The notes under the pieces: model-generated
What the model saw: only the letters and a program-made list of their open reading frames with translations
What the model was told of the DNA's origin: nothing
The model's database searches: none
In this document: piece after piece, positions 10,111-39,113 of the stretch
Layout: every line of letters begins with the position of its first letter
How positions within the stretch are numbered: the stretch's first letter is position 1
Position numbers and translations under genes: made by a program
Source: a virus
Taxonomy: Duplodnaviria > Caudoviricetes
IMG/VR virus record: IMGVR_UViG_3300029305_003192
Length of the DNA stretch: 64,000 nucleotides
Direction: 5' to 3' (one strand)

Positions 10111-13100
10111 ATGCCAGGCGTTAATTCAGGAGGCAGCACCGGCTGCAATAATGCGTGCTATACCAACTGTGCTGCTCAATGTGGTGCTGGATGTGGTGAT
10201 TCCTGCTCCCAGAGTTGTGGCGGTGCATGTTCACGCACATGCTTCGATACATGTGCATCCATGTGTATTGGTTACTGCAGTGCTAGCTGTACTGGTTCTA
10301 CGACTAAGTATGTTAATACTGCTCTTGACAATGGCAGAGAACACCGAGTAGGTGCTCAGCTATATGATTGGGAGTTTAACGATACCTATGACATAAAATC
10401 GGTCGCTAAGGATAATATGACGCTCATCGAGCAGTTGTATTCTCAGTGTATCAAAAACCAGAAGATTAGATGTGATATATCTCGTCTGTATGGTAAGATG
10501 AGCGACTTCGTTTCAGATATCGACATTAATAACGAATTGGGAGTTGGGTTCTTTTCTTATACTCTTGAAGTCCCAATGCAGAATGTTAGATGTCTTAAGA
10601 AGCTTGCACTTAAGCGAGCTAATCCACGTTTATATACAGTAAACGATACCTGCTCAAAGACAGAAATCTTCGAAAGAAGATTGATGCTCTTTATCGACGG
10701 TAGTTATTACCCAGATGTGAGATTCTTTATTGAATATGACAGATTCATCATGGTCATCGAACCATCAAGAACTCTCACTAATGATAAGATTCGAGCAATG
10801 CGTCTTGGCGACGTAACTTGGAGCTTATTAGTCATGCCATTCTCAACCACTCTGGAATTCATCGGTAATACCCAGATGATAAATGGTAGAGAAGGTGCAA
10901 CGCTTACTAAGCACGGATTATTGATTAACAATATGAAGATGACATCGACTACTAAATTCACAAGTAAGAATATGTGGTTGGCGTCGGTTCGATTTAATAA
11001 TCCGATTACCGATGGCTCCGGAAATCCTCCGGCATACAATTGGCGTTCTTTCTCTTTCATTACCAATATGACCACTGTCAATGGTAAACAATATCTGGTG
11101 ATTCCCGAATCCATTAGAAAGAGATTAAATAGCGAACATGACATATACCTCTCATTAAGTGCTATTCCACATGCTAAGGGAAGCGTACATCTTGATACTG
11201 CAAGAGCATTCCAGATTGAATTAGATAAGAATCCAATTCCGCCAGAGAATGTTATCTGTTGGACAATCAACCAGGATGGTTTGGTTAAGTACGTCCACAA
11301 TGCCGAAGTGACTCTGCATTATCCAAACGTATATGAAATCAACAATGTCCCAGATGAAGCTTCGTTGTTTGTGACCTGGTGTCACTGTGACGAGGCATCT
11401 ACTACTTTCATTAATCCTCTCAAGGAGTATATGGAATACAATACATTGTATGCTTCGGATATTATCAATGACCGTATTCCTGAAGCTATCAAGGCTTATA
11501 TTCCGTATAAACACGTGTACTATGAATGGCACTATGCTGAATATCACCGCAAGGCTACTCGTAGATATGAAGAGCCGCTGCTTTATTCATTCGAAACCCT
11601 TAAGGAGCTTCTTGATGACGACGCAAGACGTCTTGAGGGTCTTTATCTCAGGAATGTTCAGGATACGGCTTATAAGTGGCATAGCAATCCTAAGTATCAC
11701 GTTCATATGAATAAATGGGGTTCAATGGCTGATAGAATCAGACGTACTAATGGTCGCGAAATTCGTCACGGCACATATGTCGACTTTGGAATGGATTGTG
11801 TTTATTTCGTAATCGAACATGAAGACGACCGTTCTTACCCAATATGCGTCACTATTGATGGTATCAGATGCATGAATCACTTCCAATATACTGAAGGATT
11901 CCGTACATTCGTATATGTGCCCGCTGCGTTCGTAACTCCTGATTCATTTATCGAATTTGAAGTTATGAAAGTTCGTAGTAACCTCATCAATGGTATAGAT
12001 GTTAAGATGCCGGCTATCCACTTCTCTATGGAGCTTCCTGAGAACTTCCCAGATATATCTCCACAGAATTTCATGATTGCTATTCGTGAAGAAAAGCCGG
12101 ATACTGAAAGTAATGGTGGTATGAAGTACTACTATAGAGTAGCACCTAACTATGAGATGTATTGGCTGATTTTCGGTACTACCAAATATATCAACGGCAT
12201 TCCCGAGGATTATACTACCGAGTATCCCGTAGAGGAAGGAAAGTATACCAATATCCTAACATCATCTGATTCTACTCTCCTCGATGACAGGGGAAATGCA
12301 CTCAAGTTGTCAGATGGTAACTTCTGGTATGGCGGTGATTACCACTATCTGCTCGAATACTGTAAAGGTTGTAAAGGACGCCCTGATTGCAATAGGTTAT
12401 GTTGCGATAAATTCTGCGCCGGCTTATGCGACAATACATGTGGCTGTGAGCATATTCACGAATGCGGCGACTATATCAGTATTATCGAAACTCCTAATAA
12501 GACTGAGGGTCTTCTCGACGAAAATGGTGATCCTATATACCAGGACGTATATCAGGTTCGTGACCTCGGATACTACGCAGATGCAAGAAGACGATTCTAT
12601 CAGTATATGCAGAATGATAAGTATATTATCACCGACGATAGAAATGATTTCGATGACAATCATATCCCAGATCACGAAAAAATGAAGATTAAAGATGGCG
12701 TGCTTTGTAGTGAAGATTGCCAGGTACCTAATCGTGTTAGGGAAAGAATTGACCCGGTGTATATCACACCTATTACAAGCTACTTTGCTCTTAAGAACGT
12801 CCGTATGGTAGCTACTGATATCTACAGAAAGTGGACATTCGTGATTGGTAGAAATGCTAAGGGAGAATTCGACCCGACCTTTAATAAGGTAACCATCGAC
12901 GATTTCTATCTCGAGCCTTCACCAAATAAACTCCGTGTATATATGGATGGTAGACTTCTTGACCCATATACAGATTACGTCATGGACGCTTCTATCAAGA
13001 ACGGCTTCTATCTTGGAAGCTCGGTCAATATCTATATCAAGAAGAAGTTTGTAGCATTTGCTGATATTATGGTAGAATTCCTGCCATATAGATACAATAT

Positions 13101-14331
13101 GCTCTACAGACTTGAGGACGTATCTCTCACAAACTTACAGCTCAGAGAAGCTGTAATTACTAGACCATTCAGTATGGTATATTACGACGTCTATGTAAAT
13201 GGTGAGAAACTTGCCCCAGAGGACGTTACTGTAGTAACACCTTCTAAGATTATAATCAATAAGGAACTTCATAACGATATCGTATCTTTCTACGAAAGAT
13301 GTCATGACCAGGATATCTATGAAAATGACAGATATATGAAACAGGCACTCGTCGATGCGATTGCTACTGAAATAACAGGATTCCGCGAATATCTGCTTCC
13401 AGAATTCGCTAAGGCTGATATCGTAGATAATATCTATGCACCAGCGGGATGTTCCGGTACATGCACTACTGCTTGTACTACTTCCTGTACCATCATGTGT
13501 GGTTCATCATGTGACACATTCTGCGGTAAGGGATGTACTGGTTCCTGTGAGAATACATGCTTCAATGAAGCTGGAACCACTGCTTGTGGTGGATGTGCCG
13601 TAGGATGTTCGGCTGTTTGTTACGGCTGTGCTGGTACATGTATAGGTATGGCAAGTGCTAGACCAAACGCATGTAAGGACTGTACTACTCAATGTGGTAG
13701 TAGCTGTATCGGTACTTGCATAGGCACATCCGGTGGAGTTACTACATGTGAAGGATGTGCTGGTAATTGTGCCGGAACATGCTATCAGTCATGTAGTGGT
13801 ACATCATCAGCAAATGGATGTTATGGTTGCGGCACAACATGCATGTATGAATGCTCCAACTGTACCGGTACTTGTACTGGTTCAGCAGAAGGACTTATAT
13901 CAGTACCGGAAGCATGTAATGGATGCTCATCTTCATGCGGTACTGCATGTAGTGATAACTGTACCGGTACGTGCTTCAGCGGATGTAGCCAATCTTGTGC
14001 TGGATGCTCTGGTTCATGTGACAATACATGTGAAAACCATTGTACTGGAACATGTGAGAATGGATGTCTCTCAGATTGCTCAGGCTCATGCTCCAATACA
14101 TCTGCCCGTGATACATCAGTCACATCTTGCTCCGGTTGCTATGCGTCTTGCCTTGGAAACTGTATGACAACGAACGCGTCTTCTACTGAATGTAGTGGAT
14201 GTGGACACCTTTGCACCAATGCTTGTATTGGTAGATGTACAGGCTCTTGCGACAGCTTATGTCGTGGCACATGCTCGACATCTTGCGTATCTTCGGATAA
14301 TGTAAGAACTATGGCGGCCCAATTCTATTAA
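10111..14331 (+). CDS. Large late/virion protein (1406 aa) with terminal CxxxC repeat arrays
   Basis: 13 Cys at 4-residue spacing at the N-terminus, ~61 Cys in the last ~290 aa, central Cys cluster; late promoter and SD. Confidence 0.8.
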   Translation: MPGVNSGGSTGCNNACYTNCAAQCGAGCGDSCSQSCGGACSRTCFDTCASMCIGYCSASCTGSTTKYVNTALDNGREHRVGAQLYDWEFNDTYDIKSVAKDNMTLIEQLYSQCIKNQKIRCDISRLYGKMSDFVSDIDINNELGVGFFSYTLEVPMQNVRCLKKLALKRANPRLYTVNDTCSKTEIFERRLMLFIDGSYYPDVRFFIEYDRFIMVIEPSRTLTNDKIRAMRLGDVTWSLLVMPFSTTLEFIGNTQMINGREGATLTKHGLLINNMKMTSTTKFTSKNMWLASVRFNNPITDGSGNPPAYNWRSFSFITNMTTVNGKQYLVIPESIRKRLNSEHDIYLSLSAIPHAKGSVHLDTARAFQIELDKNPIPPENVICWTINQDGLVKYVHNAEVTLHYPNVYEINNVPDEASLFVTWCHCDEASTTFINPLKEYMEYNTLYASDIINDRIPEAIKAYIPYKHVYYEWHYAEYHRKATRRYEEPLLYSFETLKELLDDDARRLEGLYLRNVQDTAYKWHSNPKYHVHMNKWGSMADRIRRTNGREIRHGTYVDFGMDCVYFVIEHEDDRSYPICVTIDGIRCMNHFQYTEGFRTFVYVPAAFVTPDSFIEFEVMKVRSNLINGIDVKMPAIHFSMELPENFPDISPQNFMIAIREEKPDTESNGGMKYYYRVAPNYEMYWLIFGTTKYINGIPEDYTTEYPVEEGKYTNILTSSDSTLLDDRGNALKLSDGNFWYGGDYHYLLEYCKGCKGRPDCNRLCCDKFCAGLCDNTCGCEHIHECGDYISIIETPNKTEGLLDENGDPIYQDVYQVRDLGYYADARRRFYQYMQNDKYIITDDRNDFDDNHIPDHEKMKIKDGVLCSEDCQVPNRVRERIDPVYITPITSYFALKNVRMVATDIYRKWTFVIGRNAKGEFDPTFNKVTIDDFYLEPSPNKLRVYMDGRLLDPYTDYVMDASIKNGFYLGSSVNIYIKKKFVAFADIMVEFLPYRYNMLYRLEDVSLTNLQLREAVITRPFSMVYYDVYVNGEKLAPEDVTVVTPSKIIINKELHNDIVSFYERCHDQDIYENDRYMKQALVDAIATEITGFREYLLPEFAKADIVDNIYAPAGCSGTCTTACTTSCTIMCGSSCDTFCGKGCTGSCENTCFNEAGTTACGGCAVGCSAVCYGCAGTCIGMASARPNACKDCTTQCGSSCIGTCIGTSGGVTTCEGCAGNCAGTCYQSCSGTSSANGCYGCGTTCMYECSNCTGTCTGSAEGLISVPEACNGCSSSCGTACSDNCTGTCFSGCSQSCAGCSGSCDNTCENHCTGTCENGCLSDCSGSCSNTSARDTSVTSCSGCYASCLGNCMTTNASSTECSGCGHLCTNACIGRCTGSCDSLCRGTCSTSCVSSDNVRTMAAQFY

Positions 14332-32591: not shown

Positions 32592-32721
32592 TTCCACCTT
32601 AATCACAATATCTTGAAGTATAATATCGTTCAATTTCGCAGATACGATATCTCGGAACAGTAATTTCCAATCTCATCATTGACTCAGATATAGCATTCAA
32701 GATGTGATATAAATCATCCTT

Positions 32722-32801
32722 ATACCCAGGTATCCATATGGATACCTGGGTATTCGTTGCCGTTATAAGAAAAAAAATACCGGAGCATTGCTCCGGTATT
32801 T
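32722..32801. terminator. Tandem terminators for convergent units
   Basis: ATACCCAGGTATCC/GGATACCTGGGTAT and A-run + AATACCGGAGC/GCTCCGGTATT. Confidence 0.7.
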
Positions 32802-32804
32802 ACA

Positions 32805-33266
32805 TTACTTCTTTCTCTGTCTCAGCTTCTGTCGTATGGCTGCCAAAGTTTCATCACTTTTACCAACACGTGTCTTTGGATGACCGTCTACAGCACGGAA
32901 CTTGATAGAGAATGAGCGAGGAGTTATACCTCTTTCTTCACCGCATCCATATATAAGTATATTAACCTTAAGCTTAGGATTAAGTGTATCTACAGCCAGA
33001 TATATTATATGTGCCAGTCTCACCAACTGGTAGAATATATGGAATTCCTCATTCATACGAATTTTAATATGTATCGAGTTCTTATCGAATGTCATCTTCT
33101 TAATAGCATCTATTATATTACTTATATCCAGATTATCAGGGTCGAAATTACCTCTAATCGAATATACATTACTGCCGATTATTATCATGAAATTAGAACC
33201 TCTGTAACTGATGCTAATCGGCTTATCATCATTAAGGTTCTTTGCTTTATAATGTATCTTGTACAT
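32805..33266 (-). CDS. Hypothetical early protein
   Basis: AAAGGACGTGGTAA-ATG leader shared with 27618..27926; early core at 33292-33301. Confidence 0.7.
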   Translation of the reverse strand: MYKIHYKAKNLNDDKPISISYRGSNFMIIIGSNVYSIRGNFDPDNLDISNIIDAIKKMTFDKNSIHIKIRMNEEFHIFYQLVRLAHIIYLAVDTLNPKLKVNILIYGCGEERGITPRSFSIKFRAVDGHPKTRVGKSDETLAAIRQKLRQRKK

Positions 33267-33347
33267 TTTACCACGTCCTTTCTGCAGTATGATAATATAT
33301 ATTTAACCCCCGTATGAGATTGCTCTCATACGGGGGTGGGTTGTTAG

Positions 33348-33611
33348 TTAAGATCCTCTATTTTTAACCTTATGGTCTCTCACATAAATTGCAAGAAATG
33401 ATGCGAGGTCATTAAACGGACATCCTGGATGGTCAATACCACGCTTGACTCCTGAATGAATATCACCATAGTTTGGTATTGGATAAATATCAATGGTATG
33501 AATTCTTTTCGAAACTTTGGCTCGGTATATGTCCAGGGCTACTCGCTTTGCAGGTTTCTTAGAAACCTTATCAAACAGGGTCTCTGTCAACATCATTTGC
33601 GTAATCAACAC
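33348..33611 (-). CDS. Hypothetical protein (start uncertain)
   Basis: Fills the gap before the hairpin at 33306-33338; no clear SD. Confidence 0.45.
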   Translation of the reverse strand: MLITQMMLTETLFDKVSKKPAKRVALDIYRAKVSKRIHTIDIYPIPNYGDIHSGVKRGIDHPGCPFNDLASFLAIYVRDHKVKNRGS

Positions 33612-35223: not shown

Positions 35224-35295
35224 AGAGCATCCTCCTTTTATTATAGGTTACAGTAGAGTTGTCATGATAATTTAATTTAACAAGAACGAGAATAT

Positions 35296-36880
35296 AATTA
35301 CCGATTAGTAAAGAGATAGAATCTCTCGGTATGTTTCGTCTATGAAGATACCGGACGTGGCATACCTCGTCGAATAATCCCATGGCGACTACAATCGTGG
35401 ACTAACCAACCACAAGGGTTGTAGTGAGGCCGGGTACAAAATCATACACTTCAGTATGAGAGTAGTTTCCGGGAGAAGGCCTATACGGGTGGGGCTTGCC
35501 CCAACTTTCCAAATGTATCAGAGAGTCAGTGAGATTTCGAGAGCTCTCTGGAGTTTATAATAGTTATATAGAAACCTTTAATTACTGTGATACATATAAC
35601 ACAGCATGCTTAATAAGATAAACATCTATTGGTTATCATTAACCAATATTGGGAGAACTTGATTATATACTTCTCTATGGAGTGCGTCACGAAAGCCTAG
35701 TTGGCAATAGTCTTCATGAAGTATATAAACGAGCAATTCCACCACTCACCATGTGTGAAAGAACGGCTAGTACCACTTGGGGCGGATGCATATCCCTAGG
35801 AAGATATGTGTACGTATTCGCAGAAAGAGCCCTATGAAGGTGAGGTACCTGTAGCAGACCGCTATTAACCTAACTTTGAAGCAGGATTAATAGTTGGAAC
35901 TCTGTGATGGCTGCCGCGGAGAAGTCGGGCGATGGCAAGTTCGTCATGCTCCGTATATGATTCTTCGGAGTCATATGTTGGAAGAATAGTAGGGTGATAA
36001 GTCTCTGGAGCACATGAGTAAATATGAAGAAGTAACAGTGGATAGATTATACGTTTGGTATCAGGCTTCAATGATGAACCACGTATCAGTATTACGACAT
36101 TAAAAGTTCGATGTTCACGAATGTCGGGTACGCTCAATGTTCGCTATCAACAGTCTCAAATATTAAAGCTAACTTCTATATGATGCAGATTATTTACATA
36201 GTGGATTAAGGACCCATTATGTAAGTAATTTTCACTTTGTCTTAAAATCGCCGGCCTGCGTCCGGCTTTAAAGATTGGCAGTGCACGAAGTGCTCTAGTG
36301 CGACAGCACTACTATTGTCCGGCTCTGTCTGAGAATTACATCTCTACCGTTCCGGCATAGCCGTTGAGCGGGAGAGTGGAATTCGAGTCACAGCAACGTA
36401 AAAGCAATAAGGGTAAAAGCAAAATGCCGGACCCTTGCGGAGCGTCGCTGGCGGACATCAGGGGAGCCAGCAGCGGAGATAGCACACCGCAGGTGAAGCT
36501 CGCCGCAGGCAATGTGCATATCCATGAGACGAAGCCTATTATAAATTGATAACAATTGTTGACAGAGTCATATATACATTTGCAGCTCTTTCGACCGTTC
36601 CAATAAAGGTCGGAAGAGTGCAAATCAATACAAATATATGGCTTCGGCTGTCGCAATATTGTTACTATATTTTGGAAGGTTGGGGGAGAAGGTCCCTAGG
36701 AGGAGGGGTATCCCCTCCTTAACCTGCACCGTCCTCGTATAGTACCAACTCTTTTCTTCCAACAGCATTTCTTATACCAGCCCTTTTGTACCAACTGAAA
36801 GAGTTGGTACTATTTAGCGTCCGACCTCCTTTAAAGGACCCCTCGTTTACATGGAAAGGAAGAAGAGGGAGGACGCGTTC
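35296..36880 (+). ncRNA. Putative large structured ncRNA or ncRNA cluster, class unknown
   Basis: No credible CDS over ~1.7 kb; more than 15 helices; G-U pairs and a C(UUCG)G loop on +; AACG-N6-TAA promoter at 35285-35297; 3' boundary uncertain. Confidence 0.65.
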
Positions 36881-37005
36881 CAATGTATTATTAAGAAAAA
36901 TAATGGCCGCCGCGTCAGCGGCATATTGTTCTTTGAATAGTAGATATTTAATATGGACTTCAAAGAGTATATATCATCACATATGAAAGGAAGGTGTGTA
37001 TACCA

Positions 37006-37497
37006 ATGAATACACGTAAATTAAGGACTTTGTATTATGGTTATTGGAACGACCAATTACTATGTATATCTACAGAGTTGAAATCTGTGAAGAGTTATCT
37101 GAAGAATACGAGACATTGTGATGGAGAAGCAGTAGATATAGATGAACGGCATAAGAGGTTCGAAGACCTTACAGTAGAGGAAGAGAACCTACTGCTCGCT
37201 AAGTATAACAAAAAATATATCACTGCTAAAGACGGTAGGATAATCCTCAGAGATTTCAATCTCTTCATGGATAATATACTTAATGCCGCAGATACATTAG
37301 AGTTCCTAGATAAGCTATTCAAGTTTAATGGGCTTGTAGATGCTGCTAAGATATGTAGGTACATTCTCGATACACCATATCTCAGAGGTAGACTATTCCA
37401 GAGATTCTTCAATAACCACGACCTTGTGAAGCTTGATGTTATATCATACTTACACATGAAGAAAGAGTGTCCGTCATATATGATGGACGATGAATAA
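37006..37497 (+). CDS. Hypothetical early protein
   Basis: Early core TATATATCAT at 36968-36977; SD; terminator at 37499-37535. Confidence 0.75.
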   Translation: MNTRKLRTLYYGYWNDQLLCISTELKSVKSYLKNTRHCDGEAVDIDERHKRFEDLTVEEENLLLAKYNKKYITAKDGRIILRDFNLFMDNILNAADTLEFLDKLFKFNGLVDAAKICRYILDTPYLRGRLFQRFFNNHDLVKLDVISYLHMKKECPSYMMDDE

Positions 37498-37545
37498 GAT
37501 ATATCCAATGACTATGATGTCATTGGATATTTTTTGTACCAGAGC

Positions 37546-37608
37546 AAAAAATCAATCACCACCAAGGTATCTAGAACCGCCAGGTACGTACCTGGCGGTG
37601 ATTGATTT
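37546..37608 (-). repeat. Conserved 3' cassette hairpin/terminator element, copy 2
   Basis: AAATCAATCACC...AGAACCGCCAGGTACGTACCTGGCGGTGATTGATTT. Confidence 0.8.
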
Positions 37609-37617
37609 ATCTGTGCA

Positions 37618-37905
37618 TTATATAATACGCAGATCGAACCCCTCGTCTCTGAGGGTTTTGATAGCTGGATAGAAATCTCTATCCAGCCTGATACACTTAG
37701 AATCGTGTATCATATTTACTATGTACAGAGAAGTGACGCCCAGGAATTCTAATGATTCCTTAATTGCACTGACAACGTCCGATGGCAGCAAAACCACAGA
37801 TGTCGAGTAGATATCGATCGAATGGATCGACGAGTTCGTGAAACCTTTGAAAACCTCCACTCTCGTGGTACTCTTTTCGATAGTATTAATAGATTTCATT
37901 GTCAT
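37618..37905 (-). CDS. Hypothetical early protein (cassette B)
   Basis: AAAGGA SD; flanked by the conserved promoter/leader and the 3' element. Confidence 0.7.
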   Translation of the reverse strand: MTMKSINTIEKSTTRVEVFKGFTNSSIHSIDIYSTSVVLLPSDVVSAIKESLEFLGVTSLYIVNMIHDSKCIRLDRDFYPAIKTLRDEGFDLRII

Positions 37906-38098: not shown

Positions 38099-38524
38099 AT
38101 GCCTGCAATGGATTATAGTACAATCCGTATCAGTATACTGAACTCGCTGAAATTTCACGAAGAATATGATAGAGCCATGAGAAGTACATTCATATTCATC
38201 TGCGAATTATATCTGCTGTGGCAGCTACTCATATATGGTATAGCAAGGTCATCAAGTCTTCCAACAAGCATAGTTGGATTTGTACTTCTTACATGTACAT
38301 ATGTGACTTTGCGTATCTATAGAAAGAATGCTGTAGAGCTTGAGAAGCATGGTGAAATCATACTTAGCTATCATACTAATGAATTTGATAATGATAACTT
38401 AAAGAAATTCGGCAAAGTTGCTGAGAAGTATGACATTGGGCGAAAGAGTATATTTGCCATGAATGTAATTAGCTCGCTCTACGTGCTGATATTTTCAATT
38501 GCCACACTGATAGTGCATTTATAA
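38099..38524 (+). CDS. 3-TM membrane protein (late)
   Basis: Three hydrophobic helices; late promoter at 38052-38064. Confidence 0.7.
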   Translation: MPAMDYSTIRISILNSLKFHEEYDRAMRSTFIFICELYLLWQLLIYGIARSSSLPTSIVGFVLLTCTYVTLRIYRKNAVELEKHGEIILSYHTNEFDNDNLKKFGKVAEKYDIGRKSIFAMNVISSLYVLIFSIATLIVHL

Positions 38525-38567
38525 TGAGGAGTTAAACCGGAGTAACCTATTATGGTTACTCCGGTTA

Positions 38568-39113
38568 TTATTTGCCCTTACGAAGGACGCTGAAGTTAAT
38601 CTTGCCGAGGTCTTCGAATTGTTTAAGTATCTCCTTAGCATTCTCTGGTTTCTTCCAGTACTTTGGAGAATTCTTAGCTGTTGGACTAAATTCCATCTTA
38701 CAGTGGTCGACTATAAAGGATTCGAACGCACCAGCCGGTAATACGATAGGCTGGTCGAAGAAATCCTTAAAGTAGGTATTGAGAAGACCATCACCCTTAG
38801 ACAGGAAGTATTTCTCCAGGCACAGGTCACCATATCTGATAACTGGCGTTATTGCATATACAGTCTTCCTAGGCTGCTGTGGTGCAGAGATAATCTGCTT
38901 TACAATTATCATATATTGGTGCATTGTATCAAGGTCTTTCTCAAGATAAGCAAAGAATATCTTACTTTCTCTTGTCACTGTCCCACTAACTACTGGACCT
39001 TTCTCGATCATTTTCTTGAGGTCCGTTACTAATGCAACGAATTCACTATCGATATTTAACTTGGCTTGCAATACATCATCAACTGAGTATGGCAGGTTTC
39101 TTTTAAACTTCAT
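38568..39113 (-). CDS. Hypothetical protein, 181 aa
   Basis: AAGGAGG SD; hairpin at 38535-38566 downstream. Confidence 0.75.
   Translation of the reverse strand: MKFKRNLPYSVDDVLQAKLNIDSEFVALVTDLKKMIEKGPVVSGTVTRESKIFFAYLEKDLDTMHQYMIIVKQIISAPQQPRKTVYAITPVIRYGDLCLEKYFLSKGDGLLNTYFKDFFDQPIVLPAGAFESFIVDHCKMEFSPTAKNSPKYWKKPENAKEILKQFEDLGKINFSVLRKGK

What the first reader, a model, noticed from the sequence alone, without database searches (positions are those of the whole stretch)
35285..36880. Candidate ~1.6-kb highly structured, late-promoter-driven phage ncRNA of unknown class
Seen: this is the only gap over 1 kb without a credible CDS in a tightly packed genome, and it is almost continuously base-paired. 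Examples: ACTACAAT/GTTGTAGT (35388-35425), CAGAGAG/CTCTCTG (35519-35550), TATTGGTTA/TAACCAATA (35627-35648), TTATATACTTC/GAAGTATATAA (35663-35728), GCTATTAA/TTAATAGT (35861-35894), ATATGATTC-TTCG-GAGTCATAT (35955-35976), ATTATTTACATAGTGG/CCATTATGTAAGTAAT (36189-36229), and a rod at 36550-36664. Mismatches in several stems are G-U on + (A-C on -), so selection appears to act on a + strand RNA rather than on DNA cruciforms. A match to this phage's late motif (AACG-agaata-TAA, 35285-35297) sits exactly at the start. Known: phages carry large ornate RNAs such as ROOL and GOLLD, which are shorter than this span, and I could not recognise tmRNA, RNase P or intron cores. Inference: one very large RNA or a cluster of RNAs made late in infection, possibly a scaffold, decoy or virion-packaged RNA.
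Basis: partly seen in the sequence, partly recalled or inferred. Interest (0 to 1): 0.88.

Follow-up and report, generated by a model that had tools for sequence, protein, structure and literature searches.

The report
rRNA-sized knotted jumbo-phage RNA
The gene-free gap holds a real gene for an intricately folded non-coding RNA of about 1,500 bases (up to roughly 2,000 in relatives), kept by a whole group of uncultured giant phages; it matches no catalogued RNA family, is about twice the size of the largest comparable phage RNA known, and its job is untested.

Summary
Confirmed as a conserved, structured, plus-strand element and very probably a new large ncRNA family. The phage encodes an AR9/PBS1-type RNA polymerase. 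Seven divergent relatives (RNAP 55-60% identical where seen) keep a homologous 1.5-2 kb ORF-free unit. Each starts at a one-mismatch copy of this genome's late-promoter motif and sits just upstream of the same ~163-aa gene of unknown function. In close relatives the unit is 98.7% identical, against mostly ~80% at neighbouring four-fold sites. One helix closes 1.16-1.47 kb in all eight sequences with changed, complementary arms. In a pairwise test 48 of 60 doubly changed pairs still pair (40-55% expected). Two loop-loop pseudoknots, picked by eye, covary. No Rfam, ARAGORN or literature match was found. Corrections: it is not 'almost continuously paired' (~62%; the conserved core folds no better than shuffles), and the enriched promoter motif is AACA-N6-TA, not AACG. 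Best mechanism, inferred (~0.45): a late structural RNA/RNP scaffold like GOLLD, ROOL or OLE; the main rival is a new ribozyme. The scan had noted only this same stretch; no look-alike on other DNA.

The parts
35285..35296 (+). Late-type promoter, one-mismatch variant of AACA-N6-TA; predicted start at 35296
   Evidence: Genome motif enrichment; AR9 late consensus AACA-(6N)-TA/G (PMC5312081); a one-mismatch copy opens all eight homologs. Inferred, not mapped.
35296..36815 (+). Large ncRNA, about 1.5 kb; 3' end uncertain (36815 to about 36930)
35296..35498 (+). 5' leader outside the closing helix: hairpin 35312-35326 (also in L007, L008, L030; compensated in L024; absent in L005), conserved AAUC motif near 35372, stem 35388-35425; 153-487 nt long in homologs
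35489..35517 (+). Conserved GU-GG...CCC motif and 5' arm (35499-35517) of the closing helix P1
   Evidence: Invariant columns in all eight; arms differ but stay complementary
35552..35573 (+). 5' arms of junction helices P2 (with 36536-36547) and P3 (with 36174-36183)
   Evidence: equivalent long-range helices fold independently in homologs
35621..35626 (+). Pseudoknot PK1, 5' strand; pairs with hairpin loop 36110-36115
   Evidence: 46 of 48 cells pair across eight homologs, four of six columns with two pair types; chosen by eye, single matches not significant alone
35742..36041 (+). Conserved core domain: nested helices 35742-46/36037-41, 35750-56/36010-16, 35765-68/36000-03, 35830-34/35990-94, with conserved purine-rich linkers
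35876..35882 (+). Pseudoknot PK2, loop; pairs with hairpin loop 36065-36071
   Evidence: 7 of 7 pairs in four homologs with compensatory changes, 5 of 7 in two more
36045..36128 (+). Two hairpins carrying the 3' strands of PK2 (36065-36071) and PK1 (36110-36115)
   Evidence: Stems covary: no broken pair in 16 and 36 cells
36187..36664 (+). Variable peripheral domains (36187-36534 and rod 36550-36664), structured but not alignable between distant homologs
   Evidence: 41.5% identity to L005 against 73.8% for the core, 98.5% to close relatives; folds
36666..36719 (+). 3' arm of P1 (36666-36685), then a conserved G-rich motif and hairpin 36701-36719
   Evidence: Motif in all eight; one of only three such G-rich 30-mers in the contig
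36739..36922 (+). 3' tail: 16-bp inverted repeat 36739-36813, hairpin 36817-36876, terminator-like hairpin 36906-36922
   Evidence: 45 nt of it are deleted in L006
36965..37497 (+). Early-type AT-rich promoter motif (36965-36977) and the ~163-aa gene (37006-37497) found directly downstream in every homolog locus; candidate partner
   Evidence: 91 related clusters; no family or fold assigned

Best explanation
The gap is the gene of one non-coding RNA of about 1.5 kb (1.5-2 kb in relatives). Shown from sequence comparison: a long helix joins two distant conserved motifs and encloses 1.2-1.5 kb; inside lies a ~600-nt conserved core of short nested helices, purine-rich linkers and two probable loop-loop pseudoknots, with variable peripheral arms, much like an rRNA core with expansion segments. 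Inferred: the phage's own non-virion RNA polymerase makes it late in infection from a promoter at 35285. Least certain: it works as a structural RNA, folding into a compact particle that acts as a scaffold or binding platform, alone or as a multimer (as GOLLD, ROOL and OLE do) or with the ~163-aa protein encoded next to it. Confidence is about 0.93 that it is a real structured ncRNA and 0.45 for the scaffold mechanism.
For: Conservation above synonymous sites. Homology across four subgroups by HMM, E 7e-13 to 5e-4. P1 covariation in all eight. Pairwise test: 14/15, 11/16, 10/12 and 13/17 doubly changed pairs still pair (null 0.40-0.55), and double changes are 2-3.5 times the independent expectation. 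Pseudoknots and core helices. RNA tetraloop bias on +. Promoter position. Constant neighbour gene while the upstream gene varies. Precedent: large phage RNAs form RNA-only assemblies, and GOLLD rises during lysis (PMC12286853).
Against: Only eight divergent sequences, so no R-scape-type statistics; some directions of the pairwise test are weak (p 0.46, 0.065, 0.056). Pseudoknots were picked by eye, and L007/L030 align poorly in the core. No conserved self-complementary loop that would point to oligomers was found. The neighbour protein has its own early-type promoter and no recognisable RNA-binding fold.
Confidence: 0.45

Rival explanations
1. A new ribozyme or catalytic RNP: the conserved core with purine-rich junctions and two pseudoknots is an active site that cuts, splices or processes RNA, possibly excising the P1-enclosed part of itself.
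For: The core is conserved in sequence yet not thermodynamically stable alone (z +0.8), and invariant purine-rich linkers sit between short helices; this is typical of RNase P and group I/II cores (general knowledge). P1 brings two invariant motifs together.
Against: No hit to group I or II intron, RNase P or small-ribozyme models even at E up to 5-10. No interrupted gene: the upstream gene is divergent and the downstream gene is whole. No RT in the held 65% of the genome.
Confidence: 0.2
2. A decoy or regulator aimed at host translation or at host RNA-binding defence proteins, for example binding 30S subunits through its GGAGG-containing 3' motif or mimicking rRNA.
For: All eight carry Shine-Dalgarno-like GGAGG runs in the 3' motif, with no start codon seen after them by eye. 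The size is rRNA-like. Motifs like those of the peptidyl-transferase centre occur in order in four homologs (shuffle p about 0.01-0.08, post hoc).
Against: No nhmmer similarity to E. coli 16S/23S and no Rfam rRNA hit. The motif chain fails in the other four homologs, and the best PTC-like motif is a hairpin loop that covaries as PK1. In six homologs the G-run can pair with a pyrimidine tract of the leader (read by eye).
Confidence: 0.12
3. A structured pre-primer transcript at a replication origin: the G-rich 3' motif hybridises to the template as an R-loop, as ColE1 RNA II and mitochondrial CSB II do.
For: A G-tract motif resembling CSB II (from memory) near the 3' end is kept in all eight and is almost unique in the contig; one copy in the held contig.
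Against: Cumulative GC skew has its minimum near window coordinate 110,000, not here (the contig is only 65% complete). The conserved core and pseudoknots lie 600-1000 nt from the G-tract. The unit is far larger than known primer RNAs.
Confidence: 0.1
4. A very long 5' leader that regulates the conserved downstream gene, or a structure acting in single-stranded DNA rather than RNA.
For: Strict linkage to the downstream gene in every locus; G-T wobble alone cannot tell RNA from ssDNA.
Against: The gene has its own early-type promoter motif and hairpins precede it. GNRA/UNCG loops favour the + strand 31:10, whereas DNA-type GNA triloops are 30:21. A promoter motif marks the 5' boundary in all eight.
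Confidence: 0.08

Closest known systems
GOLLD RNA (large ornate RNA of phages and prophages; PMC12286853)
   Same: Phage-encoded, very large, pseudoknotted, conserved part plus variable part, function unknown, expression tied to lysis.
   Different: GOLLD members exceed 800 nt and often lie near tRNA islands; this RNA is 1.5-2 kb, has no Rfam GOLLD hit, no tRNA in the held contig, and an AR9-type phage promoter.
ROOL RNA (659-nt env-120; PMC12286853)
   Same: Phage-borne ornate RNA with several pseudoknots and unknown function.
   Different: Less than half the length; no Rfam ROOL hit in the window or in four homolog loci; no fixed partner gene described for ROOL in that paper.
OLE RNA with its protein partners
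   Same: Large ornate RNA that works with dedicated proteins; its gene lies beside a partner gene (own knowledge).
   Different: OLE is ~600 nt and found in bacteria (abstract of PMC12054373); no Rfam hit; the neighbour protein here shows no similarity to any Pfam family.
Group I/II introns and RNase P RNA
   Same: A closed multi-domain fold with long-range loop-loop pairings and purine-rich junctions.
   Different: No model hit, no domain-V-like hairpin recognised, no interrupted gene, own promoter.

Membership tests
GOLLD / ROOL / OLE | Match to the family's covariance model | tested here: not met
   No hit at gathering score or at E up to 10 in the window, nor in L005, L008, L030, L032 at E up to 5-10
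GOLLD / ROOL / OLE | Length 600-900 nt | tested here: not met
   The P1-closed part alone spans 1160-1473 nt
GOLLD / ROOL | Often beside tRNA islands | tested here: inconclusive
   No tRNA in the 157-kb contig, but it is about 65% complete
Large ornate ncRNA (as a kind) | Large, conserved, covarying multi-helix fold with pseudoknots and no ORF | tested here: met
Large ornate ncRNA (as a kind) | Abundant discrete transcript; RNA-only or RNP assembly | not testable with these tools
Group II intron | Domain V/VI model match and GUGYG start | tested here: not met
   No Intron_gpII or D1-D4 hit; the invariant 5' motif does not read GUGYG; the G-rich hairpin only loosely recalls domain VI
Group I intron | Catalytic-core model match; lies inside a gene | tested here: not met
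RNase P RNA / tmRNA | Model match (Rfam, ARAGORN) | tested here: not met
rRNA or 23S domain V mimic | Sequence similarity and PTC junction topology | tested here: not met
   No hit against E. coli rrn; motif chain borderline in four of eight only; the key motif is a pseudoknotted hairpin loop
RT-associated ncRNA (retron, DRT) or Ro60/Y-RNA | Linked RT or TROVE gene | tested here: inconclusive
   None in the held contig and none among called neighbours, but the genome is incomplete

The most novel reading that the evidence does not exclude
An rRNA-sized catalytic RNA or ribonucleoprotein machine of a new class, made late by AR9-like jumbo phages and working with the conserved neighbouring protein family.
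Probability: 0.25. Interest if true: 0.97.

Novelty: new variant of a known kind. Interest (0 to 1): 0.86.

Why it matters
Among the large phage RNAs I could find described, GOLLD (over 800 nt) is the biggest; this family is about twice that, near the size of 16S rRNA. It is held under stronger selection than the neighbouring protein genes. Large ornate RNAs are the main hunting ground for new ribozymes and RNA-built particles. This one offers eight natural variants, a defined core, a predicted start and a candidate partner protein, so in vitro transcription, cryo-EM and activity assays can start at once. It also suggests that phages with their own multisubunit polymerases depend on an unrecognised RNA machine.

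Tried and rejected
Rfam at gathering and E-value thresholds on the window and four homolog loci: noise only. ARAGORN: nothing. blastn of the unit and tblastn of two neighbour-family proteins against cultured phages: no match; the closest cultured RNAPs are 30-32% identical (LPJP1, PBS1, Staphylococcus jumbo phages). Pattern scans of IMG/VR, JGI metagenomes and GTDB genomes gave no verifiable homolog; protein-seeded IMG/VR scans were empty. 23S peptidyl-transferase mimicry was considered after I saw collinear motifs and was rejected. A third long-range pairing (35976-35989 with 36751-36764) fits the window, L005 and L008 but not L009/L032, and its 3' arm is deleted in L006, so it is not claimed. 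Neighbour protein: confident model (pLDDT 96) but no clear match in PDB, BFVD or the Atlas; the N-terminal domain gave Z up to 4.4 only, with weak eL20/LX rows at Z about 3.5. Five literature searches on the RNA found no description of it; one possibly relevant 2026 preprint on language-model ncRNA mining could not be opened, and subscription papers are not covered.

Full report
Setting. The window lies in a 156,816-base viral contig, estimated 65% complete; identical copies of the locus occur on contigs up to 240 kb. It encodes a 1451-aa RNA polymerase beta subunit (phrog_3148) whose closest cultured relatives are 30-32% identical: Listeria phage LPJP1, Bacillus phage PBS1 and Staphylococcus jumbo phages. 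The stretch 35224-36993 lies between a divergent 550-aa gene and a ~163-aa gene and has no credible CDS.

The observation. Folding energy alone is suggestive, not decisive. The 1520-nt unit has z -8.5 on the plus strand and -5.1 on the minus strand, but coding controls reach -4 to -5. Most 120-nt windows are unremarkable, about 62% of bases pair at p>0.5, and the most conserved 400 nt fold no better than shuffles. These make it one molecule, not a cluster of hairpins.

Homologs. Walking from neighbouring proteins to their contigs gave two close relatives (L003, L006) and seven divergent ones (L005, L007, L008, L009, L024, L030, L032). Each has an ORF-free unit of 1.5-2 kb directly upstream of a homolog of the 163-aa gene, whereas the upstream gene differs (RNAP, NrdD, a Ham1-like gene, others). 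The eight fall into four pairs. An HMM from L008/L024 finds the other six at E 7e-13 to 5e-4 and nothing in the E. coli rRNA operon. No reading frame is shared.

Selection. The unit is 98.7% identical in L003 and L006, while four-fold degenerate sites of neighbouring genes are mostly about 80% identical (range 36-97%). Against L005 the core is 74% identical while four-fold sites are 26-62%, mostly near 30%. The leader and core are the conserved parts; 36187-36665 is variable between distant homologs.

Covariation. P1 forms at high probability in every homolog when folded alone, with different but complementary arms, and spans 1160-1473 nt. To avoid circularity I folded one member of each pair and read its confident pairs in the other. 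Where both bases changed, 14/15, 11/16, 10/12 and 13/17 still paired, against 0.40-0.55 expected, and double changes were two to three and a half times more frequent than independence predicts; the reverse directions gave 9/10, 7/7, 5/10 and 22/26. In the close relatives, substitutions at paired positions mostly keep the pair through G-U on the plus strand. GNRA and UNCG loops favour the plus strand 31 to 10. Together these point to a plus-strand single-stranded RNA, not a cruciform.

Core anatomy. Anchored comparison shows four short nested helices (35742-36041) that keep pairing with changed bases, separated by conserved purine-rich linkers, and two loop-loop pairings that cross them. PK1 (35621-35626 with 36110-36115) holds in 46 of 48 cells over eight sequences. 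PK2 (35876-35882 with 36065-36071) holds at 7 of 7 in four sequences and 5 of 7 in two. I chose these by eye, and single 6-8-bp matches are mostly not significant alone, so they are probable rather than proven. P1 is flanked by two motifs kept in all eight: a short GU-GG...CCC element and a G-rich run followed by a hairpin.

Transcription signals. This genome's enriched intergenic motif is AACA-N6-TA (27 sites, 4.5-fold, 25 facing a gene, mostly 35-60 nt upstream), which equals the AR9 late consensus; AR9 also uses variants with one or two mismatches (PMC5312081). The unit opens with a one-mismatch copy at the same position in all eight, predicting a start at 35296. The 3' end is uncertain: hairpins at 36739-36813, 36817-36876 and 36906-36922 precede an AR9-early-like AT-rich motif of the next gene. 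Transcription itself could not be checked.

What it is not. No Rfam family or tRNA/tmRNA. Motifs resembling the 23S peptidyl-transferase centre appear in order in four homologs, but there is no sequence similarity to rRNA and the key motif is the PK1 loop, so I reject that reading. No RT or TROVE gene lies in the held contig. GC skew does not turn here.

Mechanism. The design (invariant knotted core, expansion-segment-like arms, own late promoter, single copy in the held contig, fixed neighbour gene) best fits a structural RNA that folds into a particle and serves as a scaffold, alone or with the neighbour protein. GOLLD, ROOL and OLE form ordered RNA-only assemblies (PMC12286853). I put this at 0.45, a new ribozyme at 0.2, a translation or defence decoy at 0.12, a replication pre-primer at 0.1, and a leader or ssDNA element at 0.08. 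The neighbour protein belongs to a family of about 90 clusters, folds confidently and resembles nothing clearly, so its partnership rests on linkage only.

Novelty. No paper found describes this RNA. The scan's own notes hold only this same stretch and unrelated-looking, shorter (350-650 nt) jumbo-phage RNAs. It is a new family within the loose kind of large ornate phage RNAs, about twice the size of GOLLD, with a real chance of being a new class of RNA machine.

Noticed in passing
window 32700-32820, 33240-33420, 37440-37740, 38460-38640: Very strong short hairpins (z -4 to -10 on both strands) between convergent genes, probably bidirectional terminators.
   Followed up: no
window 37006-37497: The downstream protein family has about 90 clusters at 50% identity, no Pfam/PHROG family and no clear fold match; whether its distant members also sit behind this RNA is unknown.
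   Followed up: partly
L003:8696-9924: An HNH/NUMOD4 homing-endonuclease-like gene and a small ORF lie between the RNAP beta gene and the 153-aa gene; that 153-aa gene and the 550-aa gene are far more diverged than the other neighbours, suggesting recombination.
   Followed up: no
L009:19611-20090 and L032:1130-1570: A further ~450-nt mostly ORF-free stretch with several hairpins and shared sequence lies between nrdD and the RNA's promoter in both loci.
   Followed up: no
genome contig, window coordinates 125232-126061: An 830-nt gap with no open frame over 50 codons, upstream of a 3396-aa gene; folding energy per base is unremarkable.
   Followed up: partly
genome contig, window coordinates 96680-97834: The only other >1 kb gap in the contig holds a 253-codon stop-free frame on the minus strand, probably an uncalled gene.
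   Followed up: partly
window 10111-14331: A 1406-aa protein begins with a cysteine-rich repeat segment.
   Followed up: no
window 35246-35262 (minus strand): The divergent 550-aa gene also has a one-mismatch late motif (AACT-N6-TA), kept in L005 (read).
   Followed up: no
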